A DNA stretch of 24,000 bases. Origin: Acidobacteriota bacterium (GTDB lineage: Bacteria > Acidobacteriota > Blastocatellia > Pyrinomonadales > Pyrinomonadaceae). The notes under the pieces are model-generated. The model did not search any database and was not told the DNA's origin. It worked only from the letters and a program-made list of their open reading frames with translations. A program made the position numbers and the translations under genes. Numbering within the stretch: position 1 is the first letter of the stretch; every line of letters begins with the position of its first letter. Of this stretch, positions 2,606 to 21,357 are shown piece after piece. The stretch is from contig JAOAPY010000011.1 in NCBI GenBank assembly GCA_025463135.1, positions 190,024 to 214,023 of the forward strand, written 5' to 3'.

Positions 2606-2708
2606 GCCGCTTTTGTACCTCTATTTTGGAATTAGACTGATCACTCTCGGAAGTTGTCAGCATCGCATACCAAAAGCACCGTAGTCCAGCTTGAACGCAA
2701 CTGCTAGA

Positions 2709-3446
2709 ATGTCGCGTATGCACGCTGAGACTTTGAACTGTTTTAACTGCGGCGCGGCTGTTTCATCCGACTCGACCCAGTGCCAGTATTGCAGCTCGCG
2801 GCTCGCGACAATCGCCTGTCCCTCATGCTTCGGAATGATGTTCATTGGCAGCAAGCATTGCCCACGTTGCGGCGCGGCGGCGGCCCAGGTTACACCCGCG
2901 GATCTGCCGGCGCGTAACTGTCCGCGCTGTCGCCTCGAAATGCAATCCGTCTTAATTGGAGCAACGGCGGTGCGCGAGTGTTTCAAGTGTGAAGGGTTGT
3001 GGCTGGACGTCACAGCGTTCGAAAGAATTTGCGCCGATCGGGAACAGCAATCCGCGGTGCTCGGAGCGGCTTCACCGGCGCCTACACATGCGGCGCAAGA
3101 CGCCCTCAGCAAGGTGAGTTATGTCCCTTGTCCGGAATGTAAGCAGCTAATGAATCGGATCAACTTTGCCAGATGCTCAGGTGTGATTGTAGACATCTGC
3201 CGAGGTCACGGCACCTGGTTCGATCGCGACGAGTTGAGCCGCATCGTGGAATTCATCCATGGCGGAGGGCTGGAGGCTGCGCGTGACAAAGAGAAGGCAC
3301 AACTCGAAGAAGCGCGACGTCAGCTGGAACAAGATCAATTGAGCGCAAGTTCGAGGTCTTCTTCGCTGCTGGGCTTCGACAAGGACGACCATCGTCTGGG
3401 TGGCATTGCGTCAACGCGAGGCTTGCTGAAGATCCTTTTGGGGTGA
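2709..3446 (+). CDS. Multi-zinc-ribbon protein (two simple CxxC...CxxC ribbons plus two zf-TFIIB-like ribbons, C-terminal coiled coil)
   Basis: Four Cys4 units: CFNCG..CQYC, CPSCF..CPRCG, CPRCRLEM..CFKCEGLWLD and CPECKQLM..CRGHGTWFDRDEL. The last two match the 'transcription factor zinc-finger' pattern (PF13453-like, from memory). These are followed by the charged helix EAARDKEKAQLEEARRQLEQDQ. The start is uncertain: TTG 2691, ATG 2709 or ATG 2718. Confidence 0.7.
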   Translation: MSRMHAETLNCFNCGAAVSSDSTQCQYCSSRLATIACPSCFGMMFIGSKHCPRCGAAAAQVTPADLPARNCPRCRLEMQSVLIGATAVRECFKCEGLWLDVTAFERICADREQQSAVLGAASPAPTHAAQDALSKVSYVPCPECKQLMNRINFARCSGVIVDICRGHGTWFDRDELSRIVEFIHGGGLEAARDKEKAQLEEARRQLEQDQLSASSRSSSLLGFDKDDHRLGGIASTRGLLKILLG

Positions 3447-4843: not shown

Positions 4844-4917
4844 TGGCTGGGAGGCAGGGACTCGAACCCCGATAGCCAGATTCAGAGTCTGGAGTCCTAC
4901 CATTGGACGACCTCCCA
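4844..4917 (-). tRNA. tRNA-Gln (anticodon CUG), CCA encoded
   Basis: The reverse complement folds by hand as a cloverleaf: TGGGAGG TC GTCC AATGGTA GGAC T CCAGA CT-CTG-AA TCTGG CTAT CGGGG TTCGAGT CCCTG CCTCCCA G CCA. U1:A72 and G73 are the bacterial tRNA-Gln identity features. Confidence 0.93.
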
Positions 4918-5176: not shown

Positions 5177-5488
5177 ATGAGCCAACAAGACCCCCAAATT
5201 CAGAGCACCAACGACGAAGCGCAACGGCTGCGAGCGCAGTTAGCAGTTTACGAAGGAAAAATTGATGAAATAGCTGACCTGGTATCACGGGTGCGGCATG
5301 AGATCAATAATCCGCTAACTGGAATACTGGGCCAGGCACAGCTTCTACTGCGTGAAGAGTTGAACCCAAAGGCCCGCCGGCGCGCCGAAACAATCGAGCA
5401 ACTCGCAAGACGGCTGGCCACCACGGTGGCGGAATTGCGCCAAGTGCAAAAGCCGGCCCGATTGCCTGCGTCAGAAGCAGACGCGTAA
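5177..5488 (+). CDS. Stand-alone HisKA (DHp) dimerisation/phospho-acceptor domain protein, with no ATPase domain
   Basis: 103 aa. An N-terminal coiled coil (EAQRLRAQLAVYEGKIDEIADLV) is followed by an H-box, SRVRHEINNPLTGILGQAQLLL, and a second helix. The ORF stops before any HATPase_c motif, and no N/G1/F/G2 remnants appear in any downstream frame. Confidence 0.65.
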   Translation: MSQQDPQIQSTNDEAQRLRAQLAVYEGKIDEIADLVSRVRHEINNPLTGILGQAQLLLREELNPKARRRAETIEQLARRLATTVAELRQVQKPARLPASEADA

Positions 5489-5601: not shown

Positions 5602-6618
5602 TTACTGCGCGGGAATGGTTTGCGTTGGGGATGATTGGACAGGGCGAACTTTTGGTGCGCGAAAGCTCTTGATGCTTTCCTTGATCATCAGACGGCGATT
5701 GCTGAGCGTGGCCATGTGAAAGGGAACTACACAACCGCAGCGATCGCAGTCAGCGTTATCCCCCATCATACACTTGCCTTTCGGCTCGCCGGTGGGTCCA
5801 AAGGCAAAGGCCTTCAAGCGAAACTCGCAATTGTCCGTCACCTGCTTCGCATTGTTTGATCGCATCAACTCCAGCGTCGAATCCATCATGTTGATGACGC
5901 CCGGATATTTCTTTTTCAAATCCAGTATTTGATCGATCAGCCGATCGCGTGTGGGCCAGTCCAGCCAGAGCATTTCGTCGAGACCCGTTACGGGCGTGAA
6001 AAAATCAAAGATGATGCCGCCGCGCGCCAGCGGGCCCCATTCCTTTATCAGATCCTCAACGCAGTCTTTGGTAATACTGGTCAACACGCAGGAAATTTGA
6101 ATATTGAACTCGGGATGGTCCTTAACGTTTTGTTTGATCTTCTGATAGATTCCCGGAGCCCGCATTCGCGCGAAAGCCTCCTCAGTCCCGTCAATTGAAA
6201 CCACCCAGGTGCAGTTGGGCCAGTTGGGCAGTTCCATCGTGCCGTTGGTGACGATGGTGTTATGCGCGAAATAATGCCGGCCTGCCTCAATCAGTTGCTT
6301 GCGCACCATCGGCTCGCCACCGACCCAGGTACAAAGCATCATGGGATGCCCGGCAGCCTTCATCGCATCGAGCTTCTCGATCCATTTCTCGACAGAGAGC
6401 TCTTTTTCGTTGTCGTGATCTTCAGCAAAGAAATAGCAGTGCTCGCAGCGCAGGTTGCAGCGATTGGTGACATCGATCGAGCCCACCGCATACTTTGGTA
6501 AGCCGGTAATGAATAAGCGACCAACCTTGGCCAGGCGGCGGACGTTTTGAGTGAAAGACATATCGGGGAACATTATGCGGGAAGGAACGGCAAGGCTCAA
6601 CCGGCGAAGATCAGCCAC
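5602..6618 (-). CDS. Radical SAM protein with a Cys-rich C-terminal (SPASM/twitch-like) motif, function unknown
   Basis: CNLRCEHC (CxxxCxxC) is encoded at 6459-6436 within VTNRCNLRCEHCYF. Also present are GGEPMV, a TNGT motif and the C-terminal CMMGDNADCDRCGCVVPF. The start is uncertain (GTG 6618 or the internal ATGs of MFPDMSF). Confidence 0.8.
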   Translation of the reverse strand: MADLRRLSLAVPSRIMFPDMSFTQNVRRLAKVGRLFITGLPKYAVGSIDVTNRCNLRCEHCYFFAEDHDNEKELSVEKWIEKLDAMKAAGHPMMLCTWVGGEPMVRKQLIEAGRHYFAHNTIVTNGTMELPNWPNCTWVVSIDGTEEAFARMRAPGIYQKIKQNVKDHPEFNIQISCVLTSITKDCVEDLIKEWGPLARGGIIFDFFTPVTGLDEMLWLDWPTRDRLIDQILDLKKKYPGVINMMDSTLELMRSNNAKQVTDNCEFRLKAFAFGPTGEPKGKCMMGDNADCDRCGCVVPFHMATLSNRRLMIKESIKSFRAPKVRPVQSSPTQTIPAQ

Positions 6619-6719: not shown

Positions 6720-7643
6720 TTAGCGTTTGGATTCGACAGTCACGTTCGCGTTGCTGCTCATGAATGCCAGAAATCGTTTGCCTTCCGGGAGCACGGCGTT
6801 CTCGCCGCGTCTGAATCCGTGGATCAGTCCAAGCGGCGCCAGCGGCGGAAAGAGGATACCGGGGATGATTGCCTTCGTTATAACCTCGGCGCTGTGACTC
6901 GTGCCCTTCACGCTGTTGCTCGTGTTGGCGTTATCGTTACGTTTGCCACTGCGCGCGCTGCGGGCAGGCTTACCAAGTTCATCGCTCCCCGCCGGACCTT
7001 CGGGCCGGATCGGCAGGCGCGTGCCATCGACGGCGACCACGTCCTGCATGGTCCATGACAAGCGCCCGGCGTGTCCCCAGTGTCCGCCCCGTTTTGCCAA
7101 ATCGACGCGCGCGGTAACCAGCGCACCTTTTTCGATGACGGTGCGGCCGTCGATCATGATCGGCACCAGAACTCGAAAGCTGATAAGGTCACCCGCCTTC
7201 ACATGAAGCGAGTCGACGGTGTAAGCCGCTTCAACATCCAGTTGCGTTCCAGCCGGAACGACGATTTGTTCCGGCTGCTGTCTTTCTAATTCCAGCCTAT
7301 CTGGTGGTGGCGCCGAATTCGCCACGGTGCTGATCGATCCGGATTTCTCAAGCCGCATCATCGCCGCTATCACTGCGTCCGGAAGACCTGCATCCCTGAG
7401 CGCGCGAAGAGCGGGCTCAGAGATATCGAAGTTGGCCGGCGAAGATTTGATCTTTGCGATCATTTCGTCCGGCGTCATCCTGGCTTGCAGCAGTTCCACG
7501 AGGTCCTGATTGGTAAGCGGCGCGGCGTGGTCTTGCGACTGCTGGATGCTTTTTACTGCTGGAGGTGGTGAAGACTCAACCTGAGCAAATGACGCGGTTG
7601 ACGATAAGAGTAGTAGGAAAAGCGGGGAGAATAACAGTTTCAT
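6720..7643 (-). CDS. Secreted protein of unknown function (signal peptide, helical N-domain, and a C-domain paralogous to the 7990-8529 product)
   Basis: GAGGAG Shine-Dalgarno lies 8 nt upstream of the ATG. The signal peptide is MKLLFSPLFLLLLSSTASFA|QV. The N-domain is LTNQDLVELLQARMTPDEMIAKIKSSPANFDISEPALRALRDAGLPDAVIAAMM. The C-terminal ~190 aa align with the neighbouring 179-aa protein. Confidence 0.75.
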   Translation of the reverse strand: MKLLFSPLFLLLLSSTASFAQVESSPPPAVKSIQQSQDHAAPLTNQDLVELLQARMTPDEMIAKIKSSPANFDISEPALRALRDAGLPDAVIAAMMRLEKSGSISTVANSAPPPDRLELERQQPEQIVVPAGTQLDVEAAYTVDSLHVKAGDLISFRVLVPIMIDGRTVIEKGALVTARVDLAKRGGHWGHAGRLSWTMQDVVAVDGTRLPIRPEGPAGSDELGKPARSARSGKRNDNANTSNSVKGTSHSAEVITKAIIPGILFPPLAPLGLIHGFRRGENAVLPEGKRFLAFMSSNANVTVESKR

Positions 7644-7732: not shown

Positions 7733-7764
7733 AAACAAAAAATGCGTGGCAGTCGCACTGCCAC
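7733..7764 (-). terminator. Intrinsic terminator (minus strand)
   Basis: The minus strand reads GTGGCAGT-GCG-ACTGCCAC (8-bp stem, 7764-7746), followed by GCATTTTTTGTTT. It lies 226 nt downstream of the 179-aa gene stop and upstream of the 307-aa gene. Confidence 0.6.
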
Positions 7765-7989
7765 GAATTGATGGTTGGAGTTAGAGCGCCACGCGGTTAC
7801 CCAGGGAAAATCTGAGTGAAGTGCTTGTGCAGCTTTTGGTGGAAGGGCAGCGCCGATCTCCCAGCGTACCGAGACCTTCTGCTGGAGCTGCAAACTTCCG
7901 AACACCTTCGATATCCGCGGCGCAATCCCTCAGAGAGGGGTACCGCGGAATAGCACCCGACAACGAACCAATTGATACGGCTGTCCGAA

Positions 7990-8529
7990 TTACTTCTCGA
8001 CAGCTGGCAGTCGAATGTCCTCGTCCACGAAAGACTTTAAAAGAGCTCCGGCTTTGACTTCCACGTTCTTGCCGTGCTTTAGCAAACCGAGCGGGCCAAA
8101 CAGGATAGTGAGGGCAACCGTAGCCCCGACTTTGTCTTCACCTTCCTTGCCTTTGTTGGCACGCAAGCGCACCCGAGTATCGCCAACCTTTAAGTACTCC
8201 AGGCGAATATTCAATTCGCCTCCTTTGCCCATCATGCCGGATTTTTTCGCATGCGTGACGGAACCTACGGCTTTTGTTCCGGCCCGGGCCACTACCACAT
8301 CGCCGACTTTCAGGTCATCTACCAGTTCAAAATTTACCCGGTCATCCTCTGCGGCCGTCTTGGAACTCAAAGCCTCAGAAAACTTTAAGTTCACCTCCGT
8401 GCCCTCTTTCAAGAGATACTTCTCGCCATTGGGCTTCGGCGCCTCTGATGTTTGAGCGGTCAGTAGGAAACTGGTTGACAAGAGGATTGCGATCAGTTTC
8501 CAGACTCTTACTCTTGGTATTGCCATCAT
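7990..8529 (-). CDS. Secreted protein of unknown function (paralogue of the C-domain of the 6720-7643 product)
   Basis: A strong AAGGAGA Shine-Dalgarno lies about 8 nt upstream of ATGATG. The signal peptide is MMAIPRVRVWKLIAILLSTSFLLTA|QT. The body is predicted to be beta-rich and aligns with the 307-aa neighbour. Confidence 0.75.
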   Translation of the reverse strand: MMAIPRVRVWKLIAILLSTSFLLTAQTSEAPKPNGEKYLLKEGTEVNLKFSEALSSKTAAEDDRVNFELVDDLKVGDVVVARAGTKAVGSVTHAKKSGMMGKGGELNIRLEYLKVGDTRVRLRANKGKEGEDKVGATVALTILFGPLGLLKHGKNVEVKAGALLKSFVDEDIRLPAVEK

Positions 8530-8905: not shown

Positions 8906-10882
8906 TCAAACTGCAATCGTCTCTTGCTCGTGCTCATCGACTAAGTACGGCGAAACGACCACGGGTTTTTCATCTGCGTCCTCGGCGAGTACGGCCTGGA
9001 TGATGGGCAGGCTCAGCGAGTGCTTCTTTGAGATTCCGGGAACGTTGTGACCGGCGGAATAAACCGCGTGTCGTTCGTTCTCCTGGTACCACTCGGCGAG
9101 GTTCGCGGTCTTGTGCATGTTCTCGATAATCTGGCGCCAGCCAACACCCGTGTTATAGGCGCAGAAGCTGATCTCGCCTTCCTGCGTGCCGTAGGGAATC
9201 ACGCACATTTCAGTGCGGCGGAAATCGTAATTGAAGAGGTCCTGAAACCACATGCCTTCAACACAAAGCACGCGCCAGATGTCGTTTGGATCATCGGGGG
9301 CTTTCGCTTTCATGCGATCGTTGCGATCAGAACTGGAGTTTGTCGAGGACGGTTTAAAGAGATTGAGGATCTGCGAAATCGGAAATCCTTCCGGCGCGCG
9401 CTCAGCGTGGAAGTTGCGCATGATGGCCATCCCGAGCTGTGCGTACGAGAGTTTCTTGCCGCGCGCCGAGTCGGTTATCACCGCCACGTCTTTCATGAAC
9501 TGCTCATAATCGAAAAAGTCGAACAGCGAAGTGAACTGCCCGGTTTTCTTGTTGACGACAATCAGCGTAAAGATGCCGCAGTTCGGATGGCAATTGCATG
9601 AAGACCAGCCCCAGGGCGCATCCGCGCCTTGCAGCATGTCCATTACGCTCGTGAACGCTGAATACGAAGACAGCGGATACCAGTCACGCAAGGGTTGCAA
9701 GCGGCCGCCGAGTTGATCCTTGAGATCGTGCGTCATGCCGGCCAGGGTATAGCGTTGCTTGATGCGCACAGCGTCAGCCACATCTTCGTCCCGTCCGGTG
9801 AATGAAACGGGCTGGAAAGCGATGGTCTGAACTTTGTCGATGTTCTGTGCGGCAAATTCAACAATCGCGCCAATGCCGTCGTTGTTGATGGTATTGACGA
9901 TGGTCGTCACCAGTGTGACTTTGATGCCGACGCTAGCCAGGTTTTCAATAGCCTGTTGCTTAACATCGAACAGGTTGCCGACGCCGCGGTGTTTGTTCTT
10001 TTCTTCGCTGACGCCGTCGAATTGCAAGTAGACGCCGTGTTGACCCGCAGCCTTGGCGGCCTTGCAGAACTCAATGTCTTCGGCAAAGCGGATACCGTTG
10101 GTCGCCGCCAGGATGCGATAGAAGCCAACCTTCTTGGCGTAAGCGACTGCTTCAAGGTAGTAAGGCGAAAGCGTAGGCTCGCCGCCGGAAAAGAGAATTA
10201 TGATTTGGCGTTTGGGCTTGAACGATACGGCACGATCCAGGATCGCTTTGGTATCTTCATAAGTTGGTTCATGAACATAACCAACCTGGTTCGCATCCAT
10301 GAAGCACGGATTGCACATCATGTTGCAGCGATTGGTAAGATCTACAGTCAGGACAGCGCCACGACCGAACTTGATATTCGAAGTGCCGTGATGATGTACG
10401 TGCGAATCTTCGGCGGCGCGAAAATCGCGGCCAAAAAAGAGAGATTCGATGCGTTCGAGAAACGCCGGGTCGGTGGCCATGACGTCCACAAACTCGCCGT
10501 GTTTGGGACAGGTCTTCTTCATGACTACCTGTCCGTTTTCTTCCACGATCTGGGCTTTGATTTCGCCCGGATGTTCGTTCATCAATGATTCAAGAGTGAC
10601 CTCGCCGGTGATGACGGCGTCGCGAACTTCCTTGACGCAGCGCGGGCAAAGGCTGTCGGTCTCGCGTGGAAAGCCGAGCGGTGGAGACGTGCGTTCGTAA
10701 GATTTCAGCAGAGGTCCCGGCGCCCACTGCGGACGAATAGCTTCGCCCTCGGGGAGTCGGGTGTTAACGGACTGAAACGCCTTCCAGGCGAGGTCAGAAA
10801 GATCCGAAACGAGTTTGGAGCTCTTCGCTCCTTTTAGTAAACCTTTTTCGGATTCACCCCGGCGGAACTGATCACTGAACAA
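8906..10882 (-). CDS. Tes / GDGT-MAS (MJ0619)-family radical SAM protein (putative membrane-spanning/tetraether lipid synthase homologue)
   Basis: 658 aa. N-terminal Cys4 ribbon: LCPRC...KKTCPKHGEF. Radical SAM core: DLTNRCNMMCNPCF, with CNMMCNPC encoded at 10327-10304. Further motifs are FSGGEPTL, ILAATNGIRFAED, GVYLQFDGVSEE, VTLVTTIVNTINND and IAFQPVSFTGRDEDV, plus a long C-terminal domain with extra Cys (SSCNCHPNCG). Order and spacing match my memory of the MJ0619 family. The start is TTG with a GGGAGAAG Shine-Dalgarno 6-7 nt upstream. Confidence 0.72.
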   Translation of the reverse strand: MFSDQFRRGESEKGLLKGAKSSKLVSDLSDLAWKAFQSVNTRLPEGEAIRPQWAPGPLLKSYERTSPPLGFPRETDSLCPRCVKEVRDAVITGEVTLESLMNEHPGEIKAQIVEENGQVVMKKTCPKHGEFVDVMATDPAFLERIESLFFGRDFRAAEDSHVHHHGTSNIKFGRGAVLTVDLTNRCNMMCNPCFMDANQVGYVHEPTYEDTKAILDRAVSFKPKRQIIILFSGGEPTLSPYYLEAVAYAKKVGFYRILAATNGIRFAEDIEFCKAAKAAGQHGVYLQFDGVSEEKNKHRGVGNLFDVKQQAIENLASVGIKVTLVTTIVNTINNDGIGAIVEFAAQNIDKVQTIAFQPVSFTGRDEDVADAVRIKQRYTLAGMTHDLKDQLGGRLQPLRDWYPLSSYSAFTSVMDMLQGADAPWGWSSCNCHPNCGIFTLIVVNKKTGQFTSLFDFFDYEQFMKDVAVITDSARGKKLSYAQLGMAIMRNFHAERAPEGFPISQILNLFKPSSTNSSSDRNDRMKAKAPDDPNDIWRVLCVEGMWFQDLFNYDFRRTEMCVIPYGTQEGEISFCAYNTGVGWRQIIENMHKTANLAEWYQENERHAVYSAGHNVPGISKKHSLSLPIIQAVLAEDADEKPVVVSPYLVDEHEQETIAV

Positions 10883-10984: not shown

Positions 10985-11013
10985 ATGATAGTGTTCTCGC
11001 CCAGCTAAGGCAA
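10985..11013 (-). promoter_or_regulatory. Candidate sigma70-like promoter for the Tes-like gene (TTGCCT - 17 nt - TATCAT)
   Basis: The minus strand reads TTGCCT (11013-11008), a 17-nt spacer, then TATCAT (10990-10985), about 100 nt upstream of the TTG start. Match made by eye only. Confidence 0.3.
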
Positions 11014-11227: not shown

Positions 11228-11254
11228 TGCAAGTTGGTCGTCAGGGAAACCGAA

Positions 11255-12163
11255 ATGTCTGCGAAAGAAGAACCACCTTACAAAATAATTGCCAGTCTGT
11301 TGAAGGGCGGCGAGGTCATTCCGTTCCTGGGAGCGGGCGTCAACTTTGGCATGCGCCAGGCGCCTGGCGCGCAATGGGCCATTAAGACCACAAACTTCCT
11401 CCCCAGCGGCGCCGACCTCTCAACTTATCTCATCGACCAGTGTGAGTTTCCCGACAAGACTGAAAAAGATCTCGCCAAGGTTTCGTCCTACTATGTAGAG
11501 GTGGTCGACCGGGACGCTCTCAGCGAAGGCCTGGTAACCATTTTTGACCGCGACTATGAGCCGTGCGAAATTCATCACTACCTGGCTAACGATATTCCGG
11601 CCGATAAACATTCATTGATCGTCACCACGAACTACGATGATTTGACCGAGCAGGCTTTTCTCAAAGCCAAGCGCCCTTTCGATCTGGTAGTACATCCCAC
11701 GGACAGCGCCCACGCGGGATCGGTTATCTGGTGGCAGTATCAAGCCACTGAACCTGAGTATGTTCCGCCCAACTCGCTGCAAATTGATCTGAGCAAGACA
11801 ACCGTTATTTACAAAATGCACGGCTCCGTCGACCGGGCTTTGCACCGCATGGACAACTATGTGATCACGGAAGACGACTACATCGACTTCCTTACGCGCA
11901 TGATTGGTCAGACGGCGGTGCCGGCACAGTTCATGGCCTATTTCAGGACTCATCGCTTTCTGTTTATGGGCTATGGCCTGAACGATTGGAACCTGCGTGT
12001 CATCCTCAATAACCTGCATGCGTCGGACCTGCACTCAAAAAAATCGTGGGCCATCCAGTACCATCCATCGACGGTGGAAAAGAGGCTTTGGGACAAACGC
12101 AATGTTGATATCTATGACGTAGAAATTAATGAATTTACCAAACAACTGCGCGCGCGCGGATAA
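11255..12163 (+). CDS. SIR2-like (SIR2_2 family) protein, a putative NAD+-consuming effector
   Basis: Motifs: VIPFLGAGVNFG (Gly-rich Rossmann start), LIVTTNYDDLTEQAF, VIYKMHGSVD (candidate catalytic His codon at 11819-11821), YVITEDDYIDF and FLFMGYGLNDWNLRVIL. There is no additional sensor domain. ATG 11255 is preceded by AGGGAA; the ORF-track TTG at 11234 is less likely. Confidence 0.85.
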   Translation: MSAKEEPPYKIIASLLKGGEVIPFLGAGVNFGMRQAPGAQWAIKTTNFLPSGADLSTYLIDQCEFPDKTEKDLAKVSSYYVEVVDRDALSEGLVTIFDRDYEPCEIHHYLANDIPADKHSLIVTTNYDDLTEQAFLKAKRPFDLVVHPTDSAHAGSVIWWQYQATEPEYVPPNSLQIDLSKTTVIYKMHGSVDRALHRMDNYVITEDDYIDFLTRMIGQTAVPAQFMAYFRTHRFLFMGYGLNDWNLRVILNNLHASDLHSKKSWAIQYHPSTVEKRLWDKRNVDIYDVEINEFTKQLRARG

Positions 12164-12180
12164 GTGGGGCGCTGAGTACC

Positions 12181-14892
12181 ATGTCGACCTCTGTTGCCCA
12201 CAGCTTTTGCCCTTACAAAGGTCTGCAACCCTACACCGAGGCAGACCGCAAATACTTCTTTGGGCGCACACGCGATCAGGGAATCATCATCTCAAACCTT
12301 TATGCCTCACCCTTGACCGTCTTTTATGGCGCCAGTGGCGTCGGCAAAAGTTCAGTACTGCTGGCTGGAGTGGTGCCGCTGCTCAAGCAGGAACCGCGCG
12401 ATGTCGTCGTAGTCGTTTTCAATAGCTGGCAAGGTGAAGACTTTCTCGCGGCCCTCAAAAGCGAGGTTGCGAAGCAAGCGGGAACAACGGCGCCGGTTGC
12501 CGAGGCGTTGCCGCTGGATGATTTCCTGGCGGAGACACAGCGCGCGCTTGGCCTCCCGCTTTTTCTTATACTCGATCAATTTGAAGAATATTTTCTTTAT
12601 CATCCTTCTTCGCCCGCGGCGGACGCTTTCGAGTCCTCGTTAGCGCGTGCGGTAAATCGCCGCAGCGTCCAGGTGAATATTTTCCTTTCGCTGCGCGAAG
12701 ATGGATTGAGCAAACTCGACCGTTTTCAGGGCCGCCTGCCGGCGCTGCTTAACAACCTGTTGAGGCTGGGCCACCTTGATCGTGATTCGGCCCGCGAAGC
12801 AATAGTTAAACCGCTCGAGCAATACAACAGCGAAAGCGGTGCAGGACAATTACCGTTTACGATTGAGGACGCACTGGTAAACGCTGTGCTCGACGATCTC
12901 TCCTCCGTAACAACAGCCTCGGATCAGGTTGGTCAGGGCCAGGTTGTCGAGCAATCGAAAAGTGCGGGCACGGTGCCGATTGAAACACCCTTCCTGCAAA
13001 TGGTTTTAACGCGGCTTTGGGATGAAGAGACCGCCGGCGGCTCTCGCGTATTGCGTCTGCAAACCTATGATGCCCTCGGACGAGCTGAGAATATTGCGCG
13101 CACGCACCTTGATACGATGATGTCACGGCTGACCGACCTTGAGCGCGCGACCGGGGCCAACATACTGCGTTATCTGGTGACGCCGTCAGGCACAAAGATC
13201 GCGCAGGAGGCGGGAGCACTTGCGTCCTGGAGCGAACTGCCGCCAGCCGAAGTCCAGTCGTTCCTGGATCGCCTGAGCGCGCCTGACATGCGCATTCTGA
13301 GAACGGTGCAGGCGCCCGGCCAGCCGGCGCGCTATCAAATCTTTCACGACGTGTTGGCCCACGCGATACTTGACTGGCGGGCTCGCTACGTTCAGGAGCA
13401 AAAACGTCTGGAAGCTGAGCACCAGCTGGCGCTTGAGCGGGCCAGTAGTGCCGAACAACTGGCGCATCAACGTAAACGGACCCGTCGGCTGCGGCTCATC
13501 GCTGCCGGGCTGCTGTTGATGCTGCTCTCGATGATTGTTCTGGCGGGAAAAGTGTACTACGCCAATTTCACTGCGCGCTCAGGTGAACTGGCCGCCTCTT
13601 CCAAAGCGCAACTCGACACCGATCCGGAACTCAGTCTGTTGCTGGCCATCGAAGCTGTTAATACCAGGCGCACAAAAAAATCGATCGAAGCTTTGAAGGC
13701 CGCGTTGATTGCCTCACAACTCAACGCTGTGCTCGATGCAAAAACCGAGGGTCGAGTCGCAAGTGTCGCTTTTAGTCCCGACGGAAAACACGTCGTAACT
13801 GCGAGTTGGGATGGAGCCGCCCGCGTTTGGGAAACAAAGACGCATAACATCTTGAGCGTACTGGCGGGTCATGGAAACCATGTCAACAGCGCCGCTTTCA
13901 GCCCGGATGGAAGGTACGTATTAACCACCAGCCAGGACAACACCGCGCGCGTCTGGGACGGATGGCAAGCAGGAGCGCCGAAGATTATTCAAAAACTTTC
14001 AGAGGGCGGCGAGATCTCTACGGCGGCCTTTAGTCCCAATGGCGAATACATCCTGACCGCGGGTGGGGAAGGAAAAGTCCACGTGTGGACGTGGAAAGGC
14101 GATGCGCCGGAGGAGAAAGCACAACTGGACATCGCCCTGGCATTGGCCGGCAACGCATCCGCGACGCAACCCTCGACCGTGCCAGCGACGCCGGAACCCA
14201 GTCCCACTCCAAGTTCAGCAGCGACACCTGGAGTCCCTGCGGCATCAGCCACACCCGGCCGGATCTTTATTTACAAGGCAGCATTCAGTCCCGATCCCGA
14301 TGGTAATTACATTATTGTGGCGTCCAAGACCAGGAAGGTATTGGTGTGGCAATGGCGGGACGAGAAGAATAATCAGGTCAAGCTTAAGCTGAGCGGGCAT
14401 ACTTCGGGAGTTTATGATGCCGCGTTCAGCAATGATGGAGCTTACGCGGTGACGGGCAGTGATGACTCAACAGCCATTGTTTGGGATCTGAAGAAACCCG
14501 ATGTTCCCAAAGTCAAGTTTAACCTGGGCACGAATCGCATCAGGGGCGTCGCATTTAGTCCTGACGGCAATTTCGTTGCCACTGCCAGTTACGATCGGCT
14601 GGCAAGATTATGGGAATGGCAACAGTTTGATGCTGTCCTGCGTGCGGCGCAGAAACCGGAGGAGCGCAGCCAACCAATGATCTTGAGCGGGCATTCAGGG
14701 CTGGTAATTTGCGTGGCCTACAGTGCTGATGGTCAGTTCGTGGTTACCGGCAGTGACGATGGCACGGCGCGCGTTTGGAGAACCCAACGCCTGGACCGCG
14801 GCACCTTGGACAAGCTCAGCACCGATGAACTATTGCAGTTAGCCAGAGGACGCGTCACTCGCGAGTTGACGCACGCGGAAAAGGATTTGTAG
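12181..14892 (+). CDS. nSTAND-type P-loop NTPase, single TM helix and 7-blade WD40 repeat protein
   Basis: N-terminal signature FCPYKGLQPYTEADRKYFFGRTRD. Walker A is GASGVGKSS (12328-12354) and Walker B is LFLILDQFEE (D codon at 12574). A helical/winged-helix region and a coiled coil ending in HQRKRTRRLR follow. The TM helix is LIAAGLLLMLLSMIVLAG (13495-13548). Seven xAFSPDGxxxxTxSxDxTARVW blades span about 13740-14790. Confidence 0.88.
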   Translation: MSTSVAHSFCPYKGLQPYTEADRKYFFGRTRDQGIIISNLYASPLTVFYGASGVGKSSVLLAGVVPLLKQEPRDVVVVVFNSWQGEDFLAALKSEVAKQAGTTAPVAEALPLDDFLAETQRALGLPLFLILDQFEEYFLYHPSSPAADAFESSLARAVNRRSVQVNIFLSLREDGLSKLDRFQGRLPALLNNLLRLGHLDRDSAREAIVKPLEQYNSESGAGQLPFTIEDALVNAVLDDLSSVTTASDQVGQGQVVEQSKSAGTVPIETPFLQMVLTRLWDEETAGGSRVLRLQTYDALGRAENIARTHLDTMMSRLTDLERATGANILRYLVTPSGTKIAQEAGALASWSELPPAEVQSFLDRLSAPDMRILRTVQAPGQPARYQIFHDVLAHAILDWRARYVQEQKRLEAEHQLALERASSAEQLAHQRKRTRRLRLIAAGLLLMLLSMIVLAGKVYYANFTARSGELAASSKAQLDTDPELSLLLAIEAVNTRRTKKSIEALKAALIASQLNAVLDAKTEGRVASVAFSPDGKHVVTASWDGAARVWETKTHNILSVLAGHGNHVNSAAFSPDGRYVLTTSQDNTARVWDGWQAGAPKIIQKLSEGGEISTAAFSPNGEYILTAGGEGKVHVWTWKGDAPEEKAQLDIALALAGNASATQPSTVPATPEPSPTPSSAATPGVPAASATPGRIFIYKAAFSPDPDGNYIIVASKTRKVLVWQWRDEKNNQVKLKLSGHTSGVYDAAFSNDGAYAVTGSDDSTAIVWDLKKPDVPKVKFNLGTNRIRGVAFSPDGNFVATASYDRLARLWEWQQFDAVLRAAQKPEERSQPMILSGHSGLVICVAYSADGQFVVTGSDDGTARVWRTQRLDRGTLDKLSTDELLQLARGRVTRELTHAEKDL

Positions 14893-14930: not shown

Positions 14931-14955
14931 TACCACGCGGCTGAAGCCGTTGGTA
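14931..14955. repeat. CTGAAG-centred palindrome/hairpin immediately downstream of the STAND gene
   Basis: TACCA-CG-CGGCTGAAGCCG-T-TGGTA. The inner 12-nt palindrome CGGCTGAAGCCG sits at 14938-14949. No T-run follows. Confidence 0.4.
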
Positions 14956-15011
14956 TCAGAGTCTCGACACCGACTCAATCGGCCCAGGACAATTCTTAGA
15001 ACTTTCCTCAG

Positions 15012-15041
15012 TTGCTTCACAAACACGCGCGCATGTAATAT
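15012..15041 (+). promoter_or_regulatory. Candidate sigma70-like promoter for lpxA (TTGCTT - 18 nt - TAATAT)
   Basis: TTGCTT at 15012-15017, an 18-nt spacer, TAATAT at 15036-15041. The -10 ends 19 nt before ATG 15061. Match made by eye only. Confidence 0.3.
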
Positions 15042-15060
15042 CCCGCCGCCTGCTGCTTTC

Positions 15061-15897
15061 ATGACCATCCATTCCACAGCGACAGTTCATCCGACGGCGA
15101 TCATCGGTTCGCAGGCGGCGATCGGACCCCAGGTGCAGGTTGGTCCATATGCGGTGATCGAAGACGAAGTTGTGATTGGCGCCGGATGCATAATCGGTGC
15201 GCATGCGGTTATCAAACGATTTACCTCACTCGGCGCGCGCAATCGTGTGTTTGAGCATACCGTGCTCGGCGGCGAGCCCCAGGATGTAAAGTTCAAGGGC
15301 CAGACGAGCAGTTTGATCATCGGTGACGATAATTTAATTCGCGAGTTCTGCACGTTGCACCGCGCCAATGGCGAAGGCGAAATTACGCGCATCGGTTCGC
15401 GCAATTTTCTAATGGTCGGCGTGCACATCGCACACAACTGCACGATCTGCGACGACAACATTTTTGCTAATGATGTGGCCCTGGCGGGTCACATTATCAT
15501 TGAAGACCGCGTGTTCCTTTCCAATAACGTTGGTGCACATCAATTCGTGCGGTTCGGACGCTGTGCGATGATTGGTGGTAAGTCAAAAATCGTACAGGAC
15601 GTGTTGCCTTTCTTCATCACCGACGGGAATCCAGCGCGTGTGCGCGGAGTGAATTCCGTGGGTTTGCGGCGCGCGGGTTTTTCAACCGAGACACGGCAGG
15701 CTCTGAAGGAGGCTTATCGGCTGCTGTTCAGGTCAGACCTTTCATTAGAAACGGCGCTCAACCATCTCGAACAGATTCCCGATGACAATGTCACTCATCT
15801 GGTAAACTTCATCCGCGAGTCCAAGCGCGGTTTCACGAGGAGTGCGAGGAGAAAAGACGGTGGGCTGGAGGCAGAAACCCTCGCCTTTGAAAAGTAA
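15061..15897 (+). CDS. lpxA: Acyl-ACP--UDP-N-acetylglucosamine O-acyltransferase
   Basis: Left-handed beta-helix hexapeptide repeats starting MTIHSTATVHPTAIIGSQAAIGPQVQVGPYAVIEDEVVIGAGCIIG. Also present are LGGEPQDVKFKG and the C-terminal helical domain GVNSVGLRRAGFSTETRQALKEAYRLLFRS. ATG 15061 gives a typical length of 278 aa; the ORF-track start at 14950 adds a non-homologous extension. Confidence 0.92.
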   Translation: MTIHSTATVHPTAIIGSQAAIGPQVQVGPYAVIEDEVVIGAGCIIGAHAVIKRFTSLGARNRVFEHTVLGGEPQDVKFKGQTSSLIIGDDNLIREFCTLHRANGEGEITRIGSRNFLMVGVHIAHNCTICDDNIFANDVALAGHIIIEDRVFLSNNVGAHQFVRFGRCAMIGGKSKIVQDVLPFFITDGNPARVRGVNSVGLRRAGFSTETRQALKEAYRLLFRSDLSLETALNHLEQIPDDNVTHLVNFIRESKRGFTRSARRKDGGLEAETLAFEK

Positions 15898-15907
15898 GAG
15901 TGCAAGT

Positions 15908-16037
15908 TTCCCGCAAAGGTGCAAAGCGCGCAAAGAATGCAATCCTGTGACCAGATACCTAAGGATGCACCAGGCGCCTATTATCAAGAGCGATTGAATG
16001 CTCGGTTCTTCTTTGCGTGTTTACGCCTCTGCGGGAA
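15908..16037. repeat. Long imperfect inverted repeat (about 30-nt arms, about 71-nt spacer) in the lpxA-lpxD intergenic region
   Basis: Arm 1 is TTCCCGCAAAGGTGCAAAGCGCGCAAAGAA (15908-15937). The reverse complement of arm 2 (16009-16037) is TTCCCGCAGAGGCGTAAACACGCAAAGAA. The arms are roughly 80 percent identical by eye. Confidence 0.55.
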
Positions 16038-16078
16038 CCACTTGTTTACGCTACCCAAAATGGGTCGTTTGATATTCG

Positions 16079-17131
16079 ATGAACCACTCCAATCAGCTTG
16101 CTGTCTCTGAACTCGCCGCTCATGTGGGCGGCAGTGTCATCGGCGATGGCAGTGCCTTGATTCAACGAGTCGCCAGCCTCGACGCCGCCGGCGCCGGTGA
16201 TATCGCCTACGTCGAAGACGAGAAGTTCTTTGCGGCCGCAAACTCGAGCAGAGCATCCTGTGTAATCGTCCCCACGGGCGCCGGCGTGAAAGCGCCTTGT
16301 CGCATTGAAGTCAAGCGCCCGAAACTCGCCTTTGCCTTAATTGCCGAACTGCTTCACCCCGCTAAGAAATGCTCTCCGTCCATTCATCCTACTGCCGTGA
16401 TAGCTGAAAGCGCGGCGGTTGACGAGAGCGCCTGGCTTGGCCCACACGTCGTCATCGAGGATTACGCTCGCGTGGGCGCGGAAACGCGCATCGAGGCCGG
16501 CGTGGTCGTCGGCGCCAACGTCACGGTCGGTCGCGCCTGCGTATTGCATCCAAACGTGGTGCTCTATGACGGCGTCACGATCGGTGATCGAGTGATTCTG
16601 CATGCAGGTGTTTGCATTGGAGCGGATGGTTTTGGCTATGTGCGCGGCGATATGGGCTATCACAAATTTCCGCAAATCGGCACCGCTGTAATCGAAGATG
16701 ATGTGGAGCTGGGTGCGTATACTTGTGTGGATCGCGGCGCGCTGGGCCGCACGCGGATCGGGCGCGGCACCAAGCTGGATAACCTGGTCCACGTGGGCCA
16801 CAATTGCGACATCGGCGAACGCGTGGTGATTGCCGCGCAAACCGGAATTTCGGGCAGCGTAATTATCGAAGATGACTGCGTCATCGGCGGCCAGGTGGGC
16901 TTTGGCGACCACATTCGCGTGCTAAGCGGCGCCGTGATTGGTTCAAAAGCGGGAGTACTGCCGGGCAAGATCGTGCGGCCCGGTGTCTGGTGGGGCATTC
17001 CTATTCAGCCCCTCGATGAATACAAGCGTCTTCATGCCCATCTCGGCCGCTTGCCGCATTTGCGCGACGAATTGAAGGAGCTGCGCGAACGTGTGAAGGA
17101 GTTGGAACGGAAGCTCGTGCGGGACAAGTAG
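16079..17131 (+). CDS. lpxD: UDP-3-O-acylglucosamine N-acyltransferase
   Basis: N-terminal uridine-binding domain (LAVSELAAHVGGSVIGDG...IAYVEDEKF...ASCVIVP), a long hexapeptide-repeat beta-helix containing GADGFGY and VHVGHNC, and a C-terminal helix. Confidence 0.92.
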   Translation: MNHSNQLAVSELAAHVGGSVIGDGSALIQRVASLDAAGAGDIAYVEDEKFFAAANSSRASCVIVPTGAGVKAPCRIEVKRPKLAFALIAELLHPAKKCSPSIHPTAVIAESAAVDESAWLGPHVVIEDYARVGAETRIEAGVVVGANVTVGRACVLHPNVVLYDGVTIGDRVILHAGVCIGADGFGYVRGDMGYHKFPQIGTAVIEDDVELGAYTCVDRGALGRTRIGRGTKLDNLVHVGHNCDIGERVVIAAQTGISGSVIIEDDCVIGGQVGFGDHIRVLSGAVIGSKAGVLPGKIVRPGVWWGIPIQPLDEYKRLHAHLGRLPHLRDELKELRERVKELERKLVRDK

Positions 17132-17153
17132 GGGCGGACACAAAGGTCAGCAA

Positions 17154-18326: not shown

Positions 18327-18334
18327 CCAAAACT

Positions 18335-18478
18335 GTCCGACAATCTTCAGATTGTCGATCTATTTACCACAGACTGCCGGCCCATAGATCGCGGCTCTAC
18401 AGGCCGGCAGCCTGTTGGTCTCATTTATTGCGCGAACTTTAGAGACAGGACACTAGCGACAAACTGAAGTTTGTCGGA
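18335..18478. repeat. Composite palindromic (REP/MITE-like) element, copy 1
   Basis: Terminal hairpins are GTCCGACAATCTTCAGATTGTCG (18335-18357) and CGACAAACTGAAGTTTGTCGGAC (18457-18479), which are inverted copies of each other. The internal module is CTGCCGGCC (18374-18382) ... CTACAGGCCGGCAGCCTGT (18397-18415). Confidence 0.7.
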
Positions 18479-18488
18479 CGCAAATCGG

Positions 18489-19388: not shown

Positions 19389-19425
19389 TGGTATAGAGAC
19401 TCTGTCTGACCACAGCGTCCGTTGA

Positions 19426-21225: not shown

Positions 21226-21328
21226 ACTTCAGTTTGTCGTTGTGTAGCACAAGCTGCCAGCCTGTGCACGTAAGCACCTACAGGCCGGCAGGCCTGTAGT
21301 ACAGTCATCGACAAACTGAAGTTTGTCG
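21217..21328. repeat. Composite palindromic (REP/MITE-like) element, copy 2
   Basis: Terminal hairpins are GTCCGACAAACTTCAGTTTGTCG (21217-21239) and CGACAAACTGAAGTTTGTCG (21309-21328). The internal module is CTGCCAGCCTGT (21254-21265) ... CTACAGGCC-GGCA-GGCCTGTAG, a perfect 9-bp hairpin at 21278-21299. Confidence 0.7.
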
Positions 21329-21357
21329 AACATCCGCTACGTTCTTTTTGCCGCTTC

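What the first reader, a model, noticed from the sequence alone, without database searches (positions are those of the whole stretch)
8906..10882. Bacterial homologue of the archaeal tetraether lipid synthase (Tes / GDGT-MAS, MJ0619 family)
The 658-aa protein has the domain order I recall for the MJ0619-type radical SAM enzymes:
- an N-terminal Cys4 ribbon (LCPRC ... CPKHGEF);
- a radical SAM core TNRCNMMCNPCF followed by Y.EP, FSGGEPT, ATNGIRFA, YLQFDG and QPVSFTGRD;
- a long Cys-containing C-terminal domain.

In archaea this family joins two lipid tails to make membrane-spanning GDGTs. Bacterial homologues, notably in Acidobacteria, have been proposed but not biochemically proven as synthases of branched GDGTs or membrane-spanning lipids, which underpin paleoclimate proxies. 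The location next to lipid A genes and a lipid kinase gives a membrane-lipid-themed neighbourhood.
Basis: partly seen in the sequence, partly recalled or inferred. Interest (0 to 1): 0.7.

Follow-up and report, generated by a model that had tools for sequence, protein, structure and literature searches.

The report
Acidobacterial tetraether-synthase homologue missing one cluster
This soil-acidobacterial gene is a true but divergent relative of the archaeal enzyme that welds two lipid tails into membrane-spanning lipids; it keeps the catalytic core, has lost one iron-sulfur cluster, and is a credible but untested and already proposed candidate for making the bacterial lipids used as paleoclimate proxies.

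Summary

It is a full-length homologue of archaeal Tes/GDGT-MAS:
- E = 5.9e-66 against PDB 7TOL.
- The predicted fold matches 7TOM with TM 0.86.
- Pfam finds Zn_ribbon_HMPTM plus Radical_SAM.

The source is a Pyrinomonadaceae bacterium (Acidobacteriota subdivision 4). That family makes abundant iso-diabolic-acid membrane-spanning lipids.

It is not a canonical Tes:
- It scores 314 bits against the NCBIfam Tes model, whose cutoff is 450.
- It lacks all four ligands of the N-terminal auxiliary [4Fe-4S] cluster; there is no cysteine between C125 and C186.
- It keeps the rubredoxin-like site, the radical SAM motif, and the catalytic C-terminal cluster site (three Cys, Met, Tyr).
- All 240 sampled relatives from subdivisions 3, 4 and 6 show the same pattern.

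The gene is under very strong purifying selection (dN/dS 0.01-0.05).

Linkage to lipid A genes is conserved only within Pyrinomonadaceae, and the lipid kinase is not syntenic.

The most likely function is tail-to-tail coupling of iso-branched lipid chains (confidence about 0.55). No bacterial Tes homologue has been validated biochemically, and the hypothesis was already published in 2022. Interest is moderate.

The parts
8906..10882 (-). Tes/GDGT-MAS-like radical SAM gene, 658 aa (called 'type B' here: the subfamily without the N-terminal cluster)
   Evidence: ORF. Pfam Zn_ribbon_HMPTM plus Radical_SAM. NCBIfam Tes 313.9 bits, below the 450 cutoff. PDB 7TOL at E = 5.9e-66. AF2 model pTM 0.81, with Foldseek match to 7TOM at TM 0.86. 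dN/dS 0.014-0.054.
10499..10648 (-). Rubredoxin-like Cys3-His metal site (C79, C82 ... C125, H128), with a helical insert of about 22 residues compared with MJ0619
   Evidence: Pfam PF23545 covers residues 71-136. C82, C125 and H128 are invariant and C79 is nearly invariant across 30 diverse homologues. The site maps onto C9/C12/C33/H36 of GDGT-MAS.
10355..10441 (-). Loop that replaces the [Fe4S4]N-binding motif. It has no cysteine; H163, H165, G166 and S168 are invariant instead.
   Evidence: MJ0619 C73/C77/C80/H83 align to H/H/S/K. There is no Cys between C125 and C186. The motif is conserved in at least 98% of 240 type-B sequences. The AF2 model has low pLDDT here.
9851..10339 (-). Radical SAM core, with CX3CX2C (C186, C190, C193; nt 10304-10327) and the GGEP motif
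   Evidence: Pfam PF04055 covers residues 182-344 at E = 1e-19. C186/C190/C193 and G233-G234-E235-P236 are invariant. Q357/S360/R364 correspond to the SAM-loop residues Q268/S271/R275 of MJ0619.
9161..9598 (-). C-terminal auxiliary-cluster domain: C435, M544, C560, Y564 and C574 correspond to MJ0619 C338, M439, C455, Y459 and C470. C429 and C431 are additional invariant cysteines (CxCHPxCG): C429 is specific to type B, while C431 is shared with 8 of 18 canonical representatives.
   Evidence: Alignments: these residues are present in 240 of 240 type-B sequences and 18 of 18 canonical representatives. The ligand roles come from Lloyd et al. 2022.
10985..11013 (-). Promoter-like site (TTGCCT, 17 nt spacer, TATCAT) about 100 nt upstream of the start codon
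   Evidence: A consensus scan only. The number of such sites is close to what shuffled sequence gives, so this is weak evidence.
7990..8529 (-). Exported protein of unknown function (179 aa, signal-peptide-like N-terminus). It is a conserved downstream neighbour on the same strand and a possible partner.
   Evidence: A member of this family lies directly downstream (median gap 184 bp) in 56 of 80 related loci. It has no match in Pfam, NCBIfam, PHROGs or PDB.
6720..7643 (-). Second, distant paralogue (23% identity) of the exported protein, 307 aa
   Evidence: A terminator-like hairpin lies between the two paralogues at 7745-7765.
5602..6618 (-). Second, unclassified radical SAM gene (338 aa; CX3CX2C plus a C-terminal Cys-rich motif). 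It is downstream of the Tes-like gene in a minority of relatives.
   Evidence: Pfam Radical_SAM at 43.6 bits. No NCBIfam model passes its cutoff. It is present within 10 kb in 18 of 80 loci and immediately adjacent in L034, L057, L058, L063, L077 and L078.

Best explanation
The gene encodes a divergent acidobacterial member of the Tes/GDGT-MAS radical SAM family. It most likely joins the terminal carbons of two iso-branched lipid chains (iso-C15 acyl or alkyl chains on glycerolipids) to form iso-diabolic-acid-type membrane-spanning lipids.

Inferred mechanism, by analogy with M. jannaschii GDGT-MAS:
1. The radical SAM cluster (C186/C190/C193) cleaves SAM to give a 5'-deoxyadenosyl radical.
2. 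That radical abstracts a hydrogen atom from a terminal methyl group of one chain.
3. The lipid radical is parked on a sulfide of the C-terminal [4Fe-4S] cluster (C435/C560/C574, with labile M544).
4. A second SAM cleavage generates a radical on the second chain, which attacks the bound carbon and forms the C-C bond.

Shown here: family membership at the level of sequence and fold, conservation of these ligands, loss of the [Fe4S4]N cluster, source lineage, and strong purifying selection.

Inferred only: the substrate, the product and the chemistry. The idea that losing the surface-exposed N-terminal cluster is an adaptation to aerobic life is my speculation.
For: Homology and catalytic residues:
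- Full-length homology to GDGT-MAS.
- Every residue tied to catalysis in MJ0619 is kept: the radical SAM CX3CX2C motif, Q/S/R of the SAM loop, the three conserved C-terminal-domain cysteines I assign as [Fe4S4]C ligands, Met439 and Tyr459.

Source lineage and its lipids:
- The source is Pyrinomonadaceae, subdivision 4.
- More than 40% of the membrane lipid of its type genus is membrane-spanning iso-diabolic acid plus ether lipids (PMC4644332).
- The same cofactor pattern occurs in 240 of 240 sampled relatives from subdivisions 3, 4 and 6. All three subdivisions produce iso-diabolic acid (PMC13159169).

No competing enzyme known in this phylum:
- The validated bacterial synthase Mss has no homologue in Acidobacteria.

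Substrate plausibility and precedent:
- The iso-C15 chain end is structurally identical to the phytanyl chain end (Zeng 2022).
- GDGT-MAS binds ordinary E. coli ester-linked phospholipids.
- Searching for Tes homologues led to the brGDGT producer S. usitatus.

Selection:
- dN/dS is 0.014-0.054.
- Median identity across 80 genomes is 88.7%, against 66-71% for the adjacent lpxA, lpxD, lpxB and lptD. This fits a core function.
Against: - No bacterial Tes homologue has been validated, according to a review covering work up to 2025.
- A distant Tes homologue from T. ethanolicus gave no membrane-spanning lipid in E. coli.
- Under stringent criteria, Tes homologues were found in only 3 of 14 acidobacteria that produce iso-diabolic acid.
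- In subdivision 1 the related clade lacks most or all of the C-cluster cysteines, and in T. roseus the gene sits in a conjugative element. So Acidobacteria probably have another route to iso-diabolic acid, and that route could also be the one used in subdivision 4.
- The protein scores 314 bits against a 450-bit Tes cutoff and lacks the [Fe4S4]N cluster.
- The S. usitatus homologue linked to brGDGT production scores far closer to archaeal Tes (40% identity, E = 1e-139), which suggests the canonical type; I did not examine its sequence. It is not this type.
- Genomic context outside Pyrinomonadaceae is inconsistent: FolE, HemW, FabH or nothing relevant.
- Cultured relatives are obligate aerobes, whereas MJ0619 worked in E. 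coli only under anaerobic conditions.
Confidence: 0.55

Rival explanations
1. It is a lipid-tail radical SAM enzyme that does something other than make iso-diabolic acid. Examples would be intramolecular macrocyclisation, cross-linking of chains already joined (Gms-like), or coupling of other chain types. The iso-diabolic acid synthase would then be a different, still unknown enzyme.
For: - MJ0619 itself makes macrocyclic archaeol, GTGT and GDGT.
- Related radical SAM enzymes (Gms, Mss) perform varied C-C couplings on lipids.
- The type-B clade has its own invariant residues (H163, H165, C429), which suggests altered cofactor or substrate handling.
- Tes homologues were found in only 3 of 14 acidobacterial iso-diabolic-acid producers.
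Against: No such alternative product is known to be abundant in subdivision 4. Iso-diabolic acid and its ethers are the dominant unusual lipids there. The active-site residues are the same as in the tail-to-tail coupling enzyme.
Confidence: 0.2
2. It acts on outer-membrane lipid, specifically the acyl chains of lipid A or LPS, rather than on inner-membrane glycerolipids. This would explain its conserved position next to lpxA, lpxD, lpxB and lptD.
For: - The Tes-like gene is divergently adjacent to lpxA/lpxD in most of 80 Pyrinomonadaceae loci: LpxD in 71, LpxA in 57, LpxB in 54 and LptD in 42.
- An exported protein of unknown function follows it in 56 loci.
Against: - The linkage disappears in Vicinamibacterales, Bryobacteraceae and other type-B carriers.
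- The genes are transcribed divergently, so they are not one operon.
- In this window and five other loci a SIR2 gene (with a STAND gene here) sits between them, evidently tolerated.
- Synteny at 86-97% identity is expected from shared ancestry alone.
- My literature search found nothing tying iso-diabolic acid to lipid A.
Confidence: 0.05
3. It is a pterin or cofactor C-methyltransferase. This is the older 'HMPTM', 7,8-dihydro-6-hydroxymethylpterin dimethyltransferase annotation of MJ0619. Alternatively it has some other non-lipid function.
For: - IMG annotates many homologues this way.
- folE (GTP cyclohydrolase I) plus an unknown gene lies next to the type-B gene in three Vicinamibacterales-like loci, in two orientations.
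Against: - Lloyd et al. could not reproduce the pterin activity and showed lipid binding and lipid coupling for MJ0619.
- folE is a housekeeping folate gene and is absent from the Pyrinomonadaceae, Bryobacteraceae and other contexts.
- From my own knowledge, not tested here: methanopterin is not known in Acidobacteria.
Confidence: 0.05
4. It is an inactive or regulatory relic of a Tes enzyme, with no catalytic role.
For: One of four metal sites is lost. Sister clades have lost further ligands: type C lacks most or all of the C-cluster cysteines, and P0122 lacks the radical SAM cysteines.
Against: All radical SAM, SAM-binding and C-cluster residues are invariant in 240 of 240 sequences. dN/dS is 0.014-0.054, which means stronger conservation than the neighbouring essential lpx genes.
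Confidence: 0.03

Closest known systems
Archaeal tetraether synthase Tes / GDGT-MAS (M. jannaschii MJ0619, PDB 7TOL/7TOM; M. acetivorans MA_1486)
   Same: - The domain order is the same and the homology is full-length: E = 5.9e-66, about 31% identity, fold TM 0.86.
- The Cys3-His rubredoxin-like site, the radical SAM CX3CX2C motif and the SAM-loop Q/S/R residues are kept.
- The C-terminal cluster site is kept: three Cys plus the labile Met, and the conserved Tyr.
   Different: - No [Fe4S4]N cluster: C73/C77/C80/H83 are replaced by H/H/S/K, and invariant H163/H165 appear instead.
- A 22-residue insert in the rubredoxin domain.
- Conserved extensions of about 70 aa at the N-terminus and about 60 aa at the C-terminus.
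- Extra invariant C429 and C431.
- Below the NCBIfam cutoff (314 vs 450 bits).
- The host is bacterial and aerobic, and the presumed substrate is an iso-fatty acyl or alkyl glycerolipid rather than archaeol.
Canonical-type bacterial Tes homologues (for example the S. usitatus and Koribacter versatilis homologues at 40-42% identity to MA_1486; a Phycisphaerae representative sampled here)
   Same: They are bacterial, belong to the same family and are also unvalidated. They have been proposed as brGDGT synthases.
   Different: The canonical-type representatives sampled here keep both auxiliary clusters and score 432-584 bits on the Tes model. I did not examine the S. usitatus and Koribacter sequences themselves; their reported E-values (1e-139 to 1e-149 against MA_1486) suggest they are canonical. 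The window protein forms a separate clade together with the T. roseus type. The organism-level link to true brGDGT production exists for the canonical-like S. usitatus homologue, not for this type.
Bacterial membrane-spanning lipid synthase Mss (Thermotoga maritima, Thermoanaerobacter ethanolicus)
   Same: It is a radical SAM enzyme shown to couple fatty acyl tails into diabolic or iso-diabolic acids, which is the function proposed here. Its predicted architecture is reported to resemble Tes.
   Different: It is a different family, known only from anaerobes, and no homologue was found in Acidobacteria. I had no Mss sequence, so I made no direct comparison.
Acidobacteriaceae 'type C' homologues (for example Terriglobus roseus WP_014786616.1)
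   Same: They belong to the same clade without the N-terminal cluster, at about 44-47% identity, and share the N- and C-terminal extensions.
   Different: They have also lost most or all of the C-cluster cysteines and the conserved Tyr (for example SMSVS, or RMSVC with only the C574 equivalent kept). They score 220-251 bits. The T. roseus copy is cargo of a mobile element carrying a TrwC relaxase, a TraG-like coupling protein and integrases.
Radical SAM (seleno)protein TrsS (NCBIfam NF045646)
   Same: It is the second-best family hit and shares the N-terminal ribbon and the radical SAM core.
   Different: The score is 206 bits against a 490 cutoff, and the match covers only residues 107-396. 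The C-terminal domain matches Tes, not TrsS.

Membership tests
Tes / GDGT-MAS (NCBIfam NF045702 equivalog; PDB 7TOL) | Whole-protein score at or above the curated equivalog cutoff (450 bits) | tested here: not met
   The score is 313.9 bits. Tes is the best hit, at E = 1.7e-93 over model positions 2-483 of 486. Canonical representatives score 432-584 bits.
Tes / GDGT-MAS | Full-length sequence and fold similarity to the solved enzyme, covering all four domains | tested here: met
   phmmer against 7TOL gives E = 5.9e-66, aligning residues 108-598 to chain positions 36-511. Foldseek against 7TOM gives E = 1.6e-41 and TM 0.86 normalised to the target. The next hit is at 9e-9 and covers the radical SAM core only.
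Tes / GDGT-MAS | Rubredoxin-like mononuclear iron site, CX2C...CX2H | tested here: met
   C79, C82, C125 and H128 are present. Pfam PF23545 scores 54.9 bits against a gathering score of 27. The spacer is 42 residues rather than 20.
Tes / GDGT-MAS | N-terminal auxiliary [Fe4S4]N cluster ligated by C73, C77, C80 and a His | tested here: not met
   The aligned residues are H, H, S and K, and there is no cysteine anywhere between C125 and C186. The same holds in 240 of 240 type-B sequences.
Tes / GDGT-MAS | Radical SAM CX3CX2C cluster motif and SAM-binding residues | tested here: met
   C186, C190, C193, the GGEP motif at 233-236, and Q357/S360/R364 are all present.
Tes / GDGT-MAS | C-terminal [Fe4S4]C cluster with three Cys and a labile Met, plus the strictly conserved Tyr459 | tested here: met
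   C435, C560, C574, M544 and Y564 align with C338, C455, C470, M439 and Y459. All are invariant in type B and in the canonical representatives. The papers I read name Met439 but do not number the Cys ligands. I assign them from their universal conservation.
Tes / GDGT-MAS | Catalyses tail-to-tail Csp3-Csp3 coupling of lipid chains | not testable with these tools
   This needs lipid analysis of an expression or knockout strain, or an in vitro assay.
Bacterial Mss (membrane-spanning lipid synthase) | Sequence homology to the T. maritima or T. ethanolicus Mss | not tested
The literature reports no mss homologues in Acidobacteria.
TrsS radical SAM (seleno)protein (NF045646) | Score at or above the 490-bit cutoff over the full model | tested here: not met
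   The score is 206.2 bits and the match is partial, covering residues 107-396.

The most novel reading that the evidence does not exclude
This clade without the N-terminal cluster, which occurs in Acidobacteriota subdivisions 3, 4 and 6, is the long-sought aerobic synthase of the iso-diabolic-acid (brGDGT) backbone. It performs Tes-type C-C coupling with only the radical SAM cluster and the C-terminal cluster. Loss of the surface-exposed [Fe4S4]N cluster, and the gain of invariant H163/H165 and of C429, with C431 fixed (it also occurs in about half of the canonical representatives), would be the adaptation that lets this oxygen-sensitive chemistry work in obligately aerobic soil bacteria.
Probability: 0.4. 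Interest if true: 0.8.

Novelty: new variant of a known kind. Interest (0 to 1): 0.5.

Why it matters
Branched GDGTs and their iso-diabolic-acid precursors underpin widely used temperature and pH proxies for past climates. The enzyme that joins the two chains in Acidobacteria has never been shown.

This gene is a concrete and highly conserved candidate in one of the most abundant soil lineages. If it is validated, it would give a marker gene for tracing proxy-lipid producers in metagenomes.

The analysis here adds a practical warning. 'Tes homologues' in Acidobacteria fall into at least three cofactor classes: canonical, lacking the N-terminal cluster, and lacking the N-terminal cluster together with most or all of the C-cluster cysteines. 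These are unlikely to be functionally equivalent, so surveys that use BLAST thresholds alone will mix them. It also identifies a natural two-cluster variant that could help work out what the [Fe4S4]N cluster does in Tes.

The main limit is that the general hypothesis, that acidobacterial Tes homologues make brGDGTs, has been in print since 2022, and subdivisions 4 and 6 have been named explicitly as targets.

Tried and rejected
- **Neighbourhood as evidence of function.** lpx linkage is conserved in Pyrinomonadaceae but absent in six type-B loci from other lineages. I treat it as lineage synteny. The lipid kinase, transketolase and beta-eliminating lyase are not syntenic in any of 80 loci. The recurrence of a beta-eliminating lyase in a Bryobacteraceae locus is only 31% identical, and a tRNA gene separates it from the cluster here, so it is probably coincidence.
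- **rSAM2 as a conserved partner.** It is within 10 kb in only 18 of 80 loci. It is not homologous to the HemW-like radical SAM gene next to the Bryobacteraceae copy.
- **Fold of the conserved downstream exported protein.**
  - The single-sequence AF2 model was useless, at pLDDT 35.
  - Profile searches against PDB, Pfam and PHROGs found nothing.
- **AFDB fold libraries.** I wanted organism names of cultured carriers, but these libraries were not available.
- **Supplementary tables.** I looked for which acidobacteria carry Tes homologues. The tables are not held or not informative. The subdivision 4 lipid paper PMC4136120 is not held either.
- **Literature link between iso-diabolic acid and lipid A.** The search returned nothing specific.
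- **Intein or insertion in L034 and L058.** The longer tblastn spans are explained by the adjacent rSAM2 gene, not by an insertion.
- **Riboswitch or other RNA upstream.** Rfam finds only a tRNA in the window.
- **Pterin methyltransferase reading.** Considered and set aside, as explained under the rival explanations.
Full report
**Observation.** The window holds a 1,977-nt ORF on the minus strand (10882 to 8906). It starts with TTG, preceded by a GGGAGA ribosome-binding-like sequence, and encodes 658 aa. Pfam finds an 'HMPTM N-terminal zinc ribbon' (PF23545, residues 71-136, 54.9 bits) and a Radical_SAM domain (residues 182-344, E = 1e-19). The gene is real and strongly constrained. At least 80 species-level genomes carry orthologues of 86-97% identity and the same length. 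Against nine of them dN/dS is 0.014-0.054 while dS exceeds 1.

**Family.** The best NCBIfam model is the tetraether lipid synthase Tes (NF045702), at 313.9 bits and E = 1.7e-93, covering nearly the whole model. TrsS comes second at 206 bits. The best solved structure is M. jannaschii GDGT-MAS (MJ0619, 7TOL), at E = 5.9e-66 over residues 108-598; the next is SkfB at 1.9e-6. An AlphaFold2 model built from a 30-sequence alignment (pLDDT 75.6, pTM 0.81) matches 7TOM/7TOL at E = 1.6e-41 and TM 0.86 normalised to the target. All other hits (MoaA, SkfB, viperin and others, at about 1e-8 or weaker) cover only the radical SAM core.

**Source organism.** The closest proteins and loci come from MAGs labelled Pyrinomonadaceae, Pyrinomonadales or Blastocatellia, that is Acidobacteriota subdivision 4. 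The best is 97% identical. The type species of the family, Pyrinomonas methylaliphatogenes, is an obligate aerobe. More than 40% of its membrane lipid is membrane-spanning iso-diabolic acid plus iso-branched glycerol ethers, and iso-diabolic acid is common to subdivision 4 strains (PMC4644332).

**Cofactor anatomy.** Lloyd et al. 2022 (PMC9433317) define four metal sites in GDGT-MAS:
- a rubredoxin-like iron (C9, C12, C33, H36);
- a surface [Fe4S4]N cluster (C73, C77, C80 plus His);
- the radical SAM cluster;
- a C-terminal [Fe4S4]C cluster with three Cys and the labile Met439. This cluster carries the substrate-sulfur intermediate, and the strictly conserved Tyr459 lies nearby.

I aligned the window protein with the MJ0619 sequence recovered and with 26 full-length representatives from a search of 1.84 billion cluster representatives. 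The results were:
- **Kept:** C125/H128 (with C79/C82 upstream), C186/C190/C193, Q357/S360/R364, and C435, M544, C560, Y564 and C574.
- **Lost:** the four [Fe4S4]N positions read H, H, S and K. There is no cysteine at all between C125 and C186, so a cysteine-ligated cluster cannot form there whatever the alignment.

**Three cofactor classes.** Classifying 400-plus homologues by hmmalign gave three classes.
- **Canonical:** all sites present. This class includes MJ0619, a Thorarchaeota protein and a Phycisphaerae protein, and scores 432-584 bits on the Tes model.
- **Type B:** no N-terminal cluster but an intact C-terminal site. It covers 120 of 120 Pyrinomonadaceae-like sequences and 120 of 120 relatives of P0123, which are named Vicinamibacterales, Bryobacteraceae or Acidobacteriota. 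It scores about 300 bits.
- **Type C:** the Terriglobus roseus clade. The N-terminal cluster ligands and most or all of the C-cluster cysteines are lost, along with the conserved Tyr, and it scores 220-251 bits.

Types B and C form one clade separate from the canonical sequences in a midpoint-rooted neighbour-joining tree. Mean identity between the canonical group and the window group is 31%. Type B also has invariant residues that set it apart: H163-x-H165-G-x-S in the former cluster loop, and C429-x-C431-H-P-x-C435-G, where C429 is specific to type B and C431 is also found in 8 of 18 canonical representatives. It carries an insert in the rubredoxin domain and conserved N- and C-terminal extensions.

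**Genomic context.** In 80 Pyrinomonadaceae-level loci the arrangement is lptD, lpxB, lpxD and lpxA, then the Tes-like gene transcribed divergently. An exported protein of unknown function usually follows on the same strand (56 loci), and a second radical SAM gene sometimes does (18 loci).
- The window carries two distant paralogues of the exported protein and the second radical SAM gene.
- In the window a SIR2 plus STAND/WD40 pair is inserted between the gene and lpxA. A SIR2 homologue occupies this position in only 6 of 80 loci, and a full-length STAND match in only one.
- Outside Pyrinomonadaceae the lpx linkage is gone. The neighbours there are folE plus an unknown gene (three loci, two orientations), hemW, fabH, or nothing relevant.
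- The lipid kinase fragment at the window start is not syntenic in any locus.

Context therefore gives little functional signal. The gene behaves as a stand-alone, core gene. Across the 80 genomes it is more conserved (median 88.7% identity) than the neighbouring lipid A genes (66-71%).

**State of knowledge.**
- Zeng et al. 2022 reported 456 bacterial Tes homologues, including acidobacterial ones, and proposed a role in brGDGT synthesis.
- Chen et al. and Halamka et al. 2022 linked a homologue with far higher similarity to archaeal Tes (40% identity, E = 1e-139) to the brGDGT producer S. usitatus. Chen et al. named subdivisions 4 and 6 as the next targets.
- Sahonero-Canavesi et al. 2022 validated a different enzyme, Mss, in anaerobes. 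They found no mss in Acidobacteria, found Tes homologues in only 3 of 14 acidobacterial iso-diabolic-acid producers, and got no product from a distant T. ethanolicus Tes homologue.
- A review published in August 2026, covering work up to 2025, still describes bacterial Tes homologues as bioinformatic detections only.

None of the papers I read mentions the cofactor classes described above.

**Interpretation.** The most likely function is Tes-type tail-to-tail coupling of iso-branched lipid chains to give iso-diabolic-acid-type membrane-spanning lipids. It would use the radical SAM cluster and the retained C-terminal cluster. I put this at about 0.55.

Main arguments for:
- The catalytic residues are completely conserved.
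- The host lineage has abundant membrane-spanning lipids.
- Acidobacteria lack Mss.
- Type B occurs across subdivisions 3, 4 and 6.
- Selection on the gene is extreme.

Main arguments against:
- No bacterial homologue has been validated.
- The protein scores below the family threshold and lacks one cluster.
- The family is patchy and degenerate in subdivision 1, which also makes iso-diabolic acid.
- The brGDGT link in S. usitatus rests on a homologue far more similar to archaeal Tes, not on this type.

Rivals are a different lipid-tail reaction (0.2), action on lipid A (0.05), a pterin or other non-lipid role (0.05), and an inactive relic (0.03).

**Verdict.** The protein is best described as a new cofactor-reduced variant of a known family, not a canonical Tes. 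Interest is moderate. It bears on a long-standing open question and is directly testable, but the central idea is already published.

Noticed in passing
window 11234-14892 (+): A SIR2 gene (ThsA-like SIR2 domain, PADLOC 69 bits) is followed by a 903-aa nSTAND1 NTPase with WD40 repeats. The pair is inserted between the Tes-like gene and lpxA. A SIR2 homologue occupies this position in only 6 of 80 related loci, and a full-length STAND match in only one. It looks like a variable candidate defence island.
   Followed up: partly
window 7990-8529 (-) and 6720-7643 (-): These are two distant paralogues (23% identity) of an exported protein family with no match in Pfam, NCBIfam, PHROGs or PDB. A member sits directly downstream of the Tes-like gene in 56 of 80 Pyrinomonadaceae loci. 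The fold could not be determined.
   Followed up: partly
window 5602-6618 (-): An unclassified 338-aa radical SAM protein with CX3CX2C and a C-terminal Cys-rich motif (C-x19-C-x7-C-x2-C-x-C). No NCBIfam model passes its cutoff. It lies downstream of the Tes-like gene in 18 of 80 loci and is immediately adjacent in six.
   Followed up: partly
window 5177-5488 (+): A 103-aa ORF that looks like a stand-alone histidine-kinase dimerisation (HisKA-like) segment. A homologue occurs in 49 of 80 related loci near the Tes-like gene, on the opposite strand.
   Followed up: no
window 4844-4917 (-): tRNA-Gln (anticodon CTG). It separates the radical SAM genes from the beta-eliminating lyase gene.
   Followed up: yes
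L081 and L082, 6852-16176 (Terriglobus roseus-type sequence): The T. roseus homologue, which lacks both auxiliary-cluster motifs, lies between a TrwC relaxase, two tyrosine integrases, a TraG/TrwB-like coupling protein and a ParA gene. It is cargo of a conjugative or integrative element.
   Followed up: partly
L083 10205-11650, L085 10155-12469, L086 9488-10823: folE (GTP cyclohydrolase I) plus an unknown protein of 215-241 aa lies next to the type-B gene in three Vicinamibacterales-like loci, in convergent or co-directional orientation. This is curious given the old pterin-methyltransferase annotation of MJ0619, but folE is a housekeeping gene.
   Followed up: partly
window 18489-21225 (-): A Methyltransf_24-domain protein (320 aa) and a 599-aa protein with no family match sit between lpxB and lptD. 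Homologues are present in only 2 of 80 related loci.
   Followed up: no
window 8906-10882 compared with 14950-24000: Across 80 genomes the Tes-like protein is far more conserved (median 88.7% identity) than the adjacent lipid A and LPS genes: LpxA 67%, LpxD 70%, LpxB 66% and LptD 71.5%.
   Followed up: yes
P0122 (561 aa, 62% identical to the window protein): This representative lacks the radical SAM CX3CX2C cysteines but keeps the C-terminal site. It may be a degenerate copy or an assembly or frameshift artefact.
   Followed up: no
window 2657-3446: A 251-aa protein with multiple zinc ribbons (TFIIB-type and double zinc ribbon) on the plus strand overlaps a 151-aa minus-strand ORF that has no family match. 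The latter is probably not a gene.
   Followed up: no
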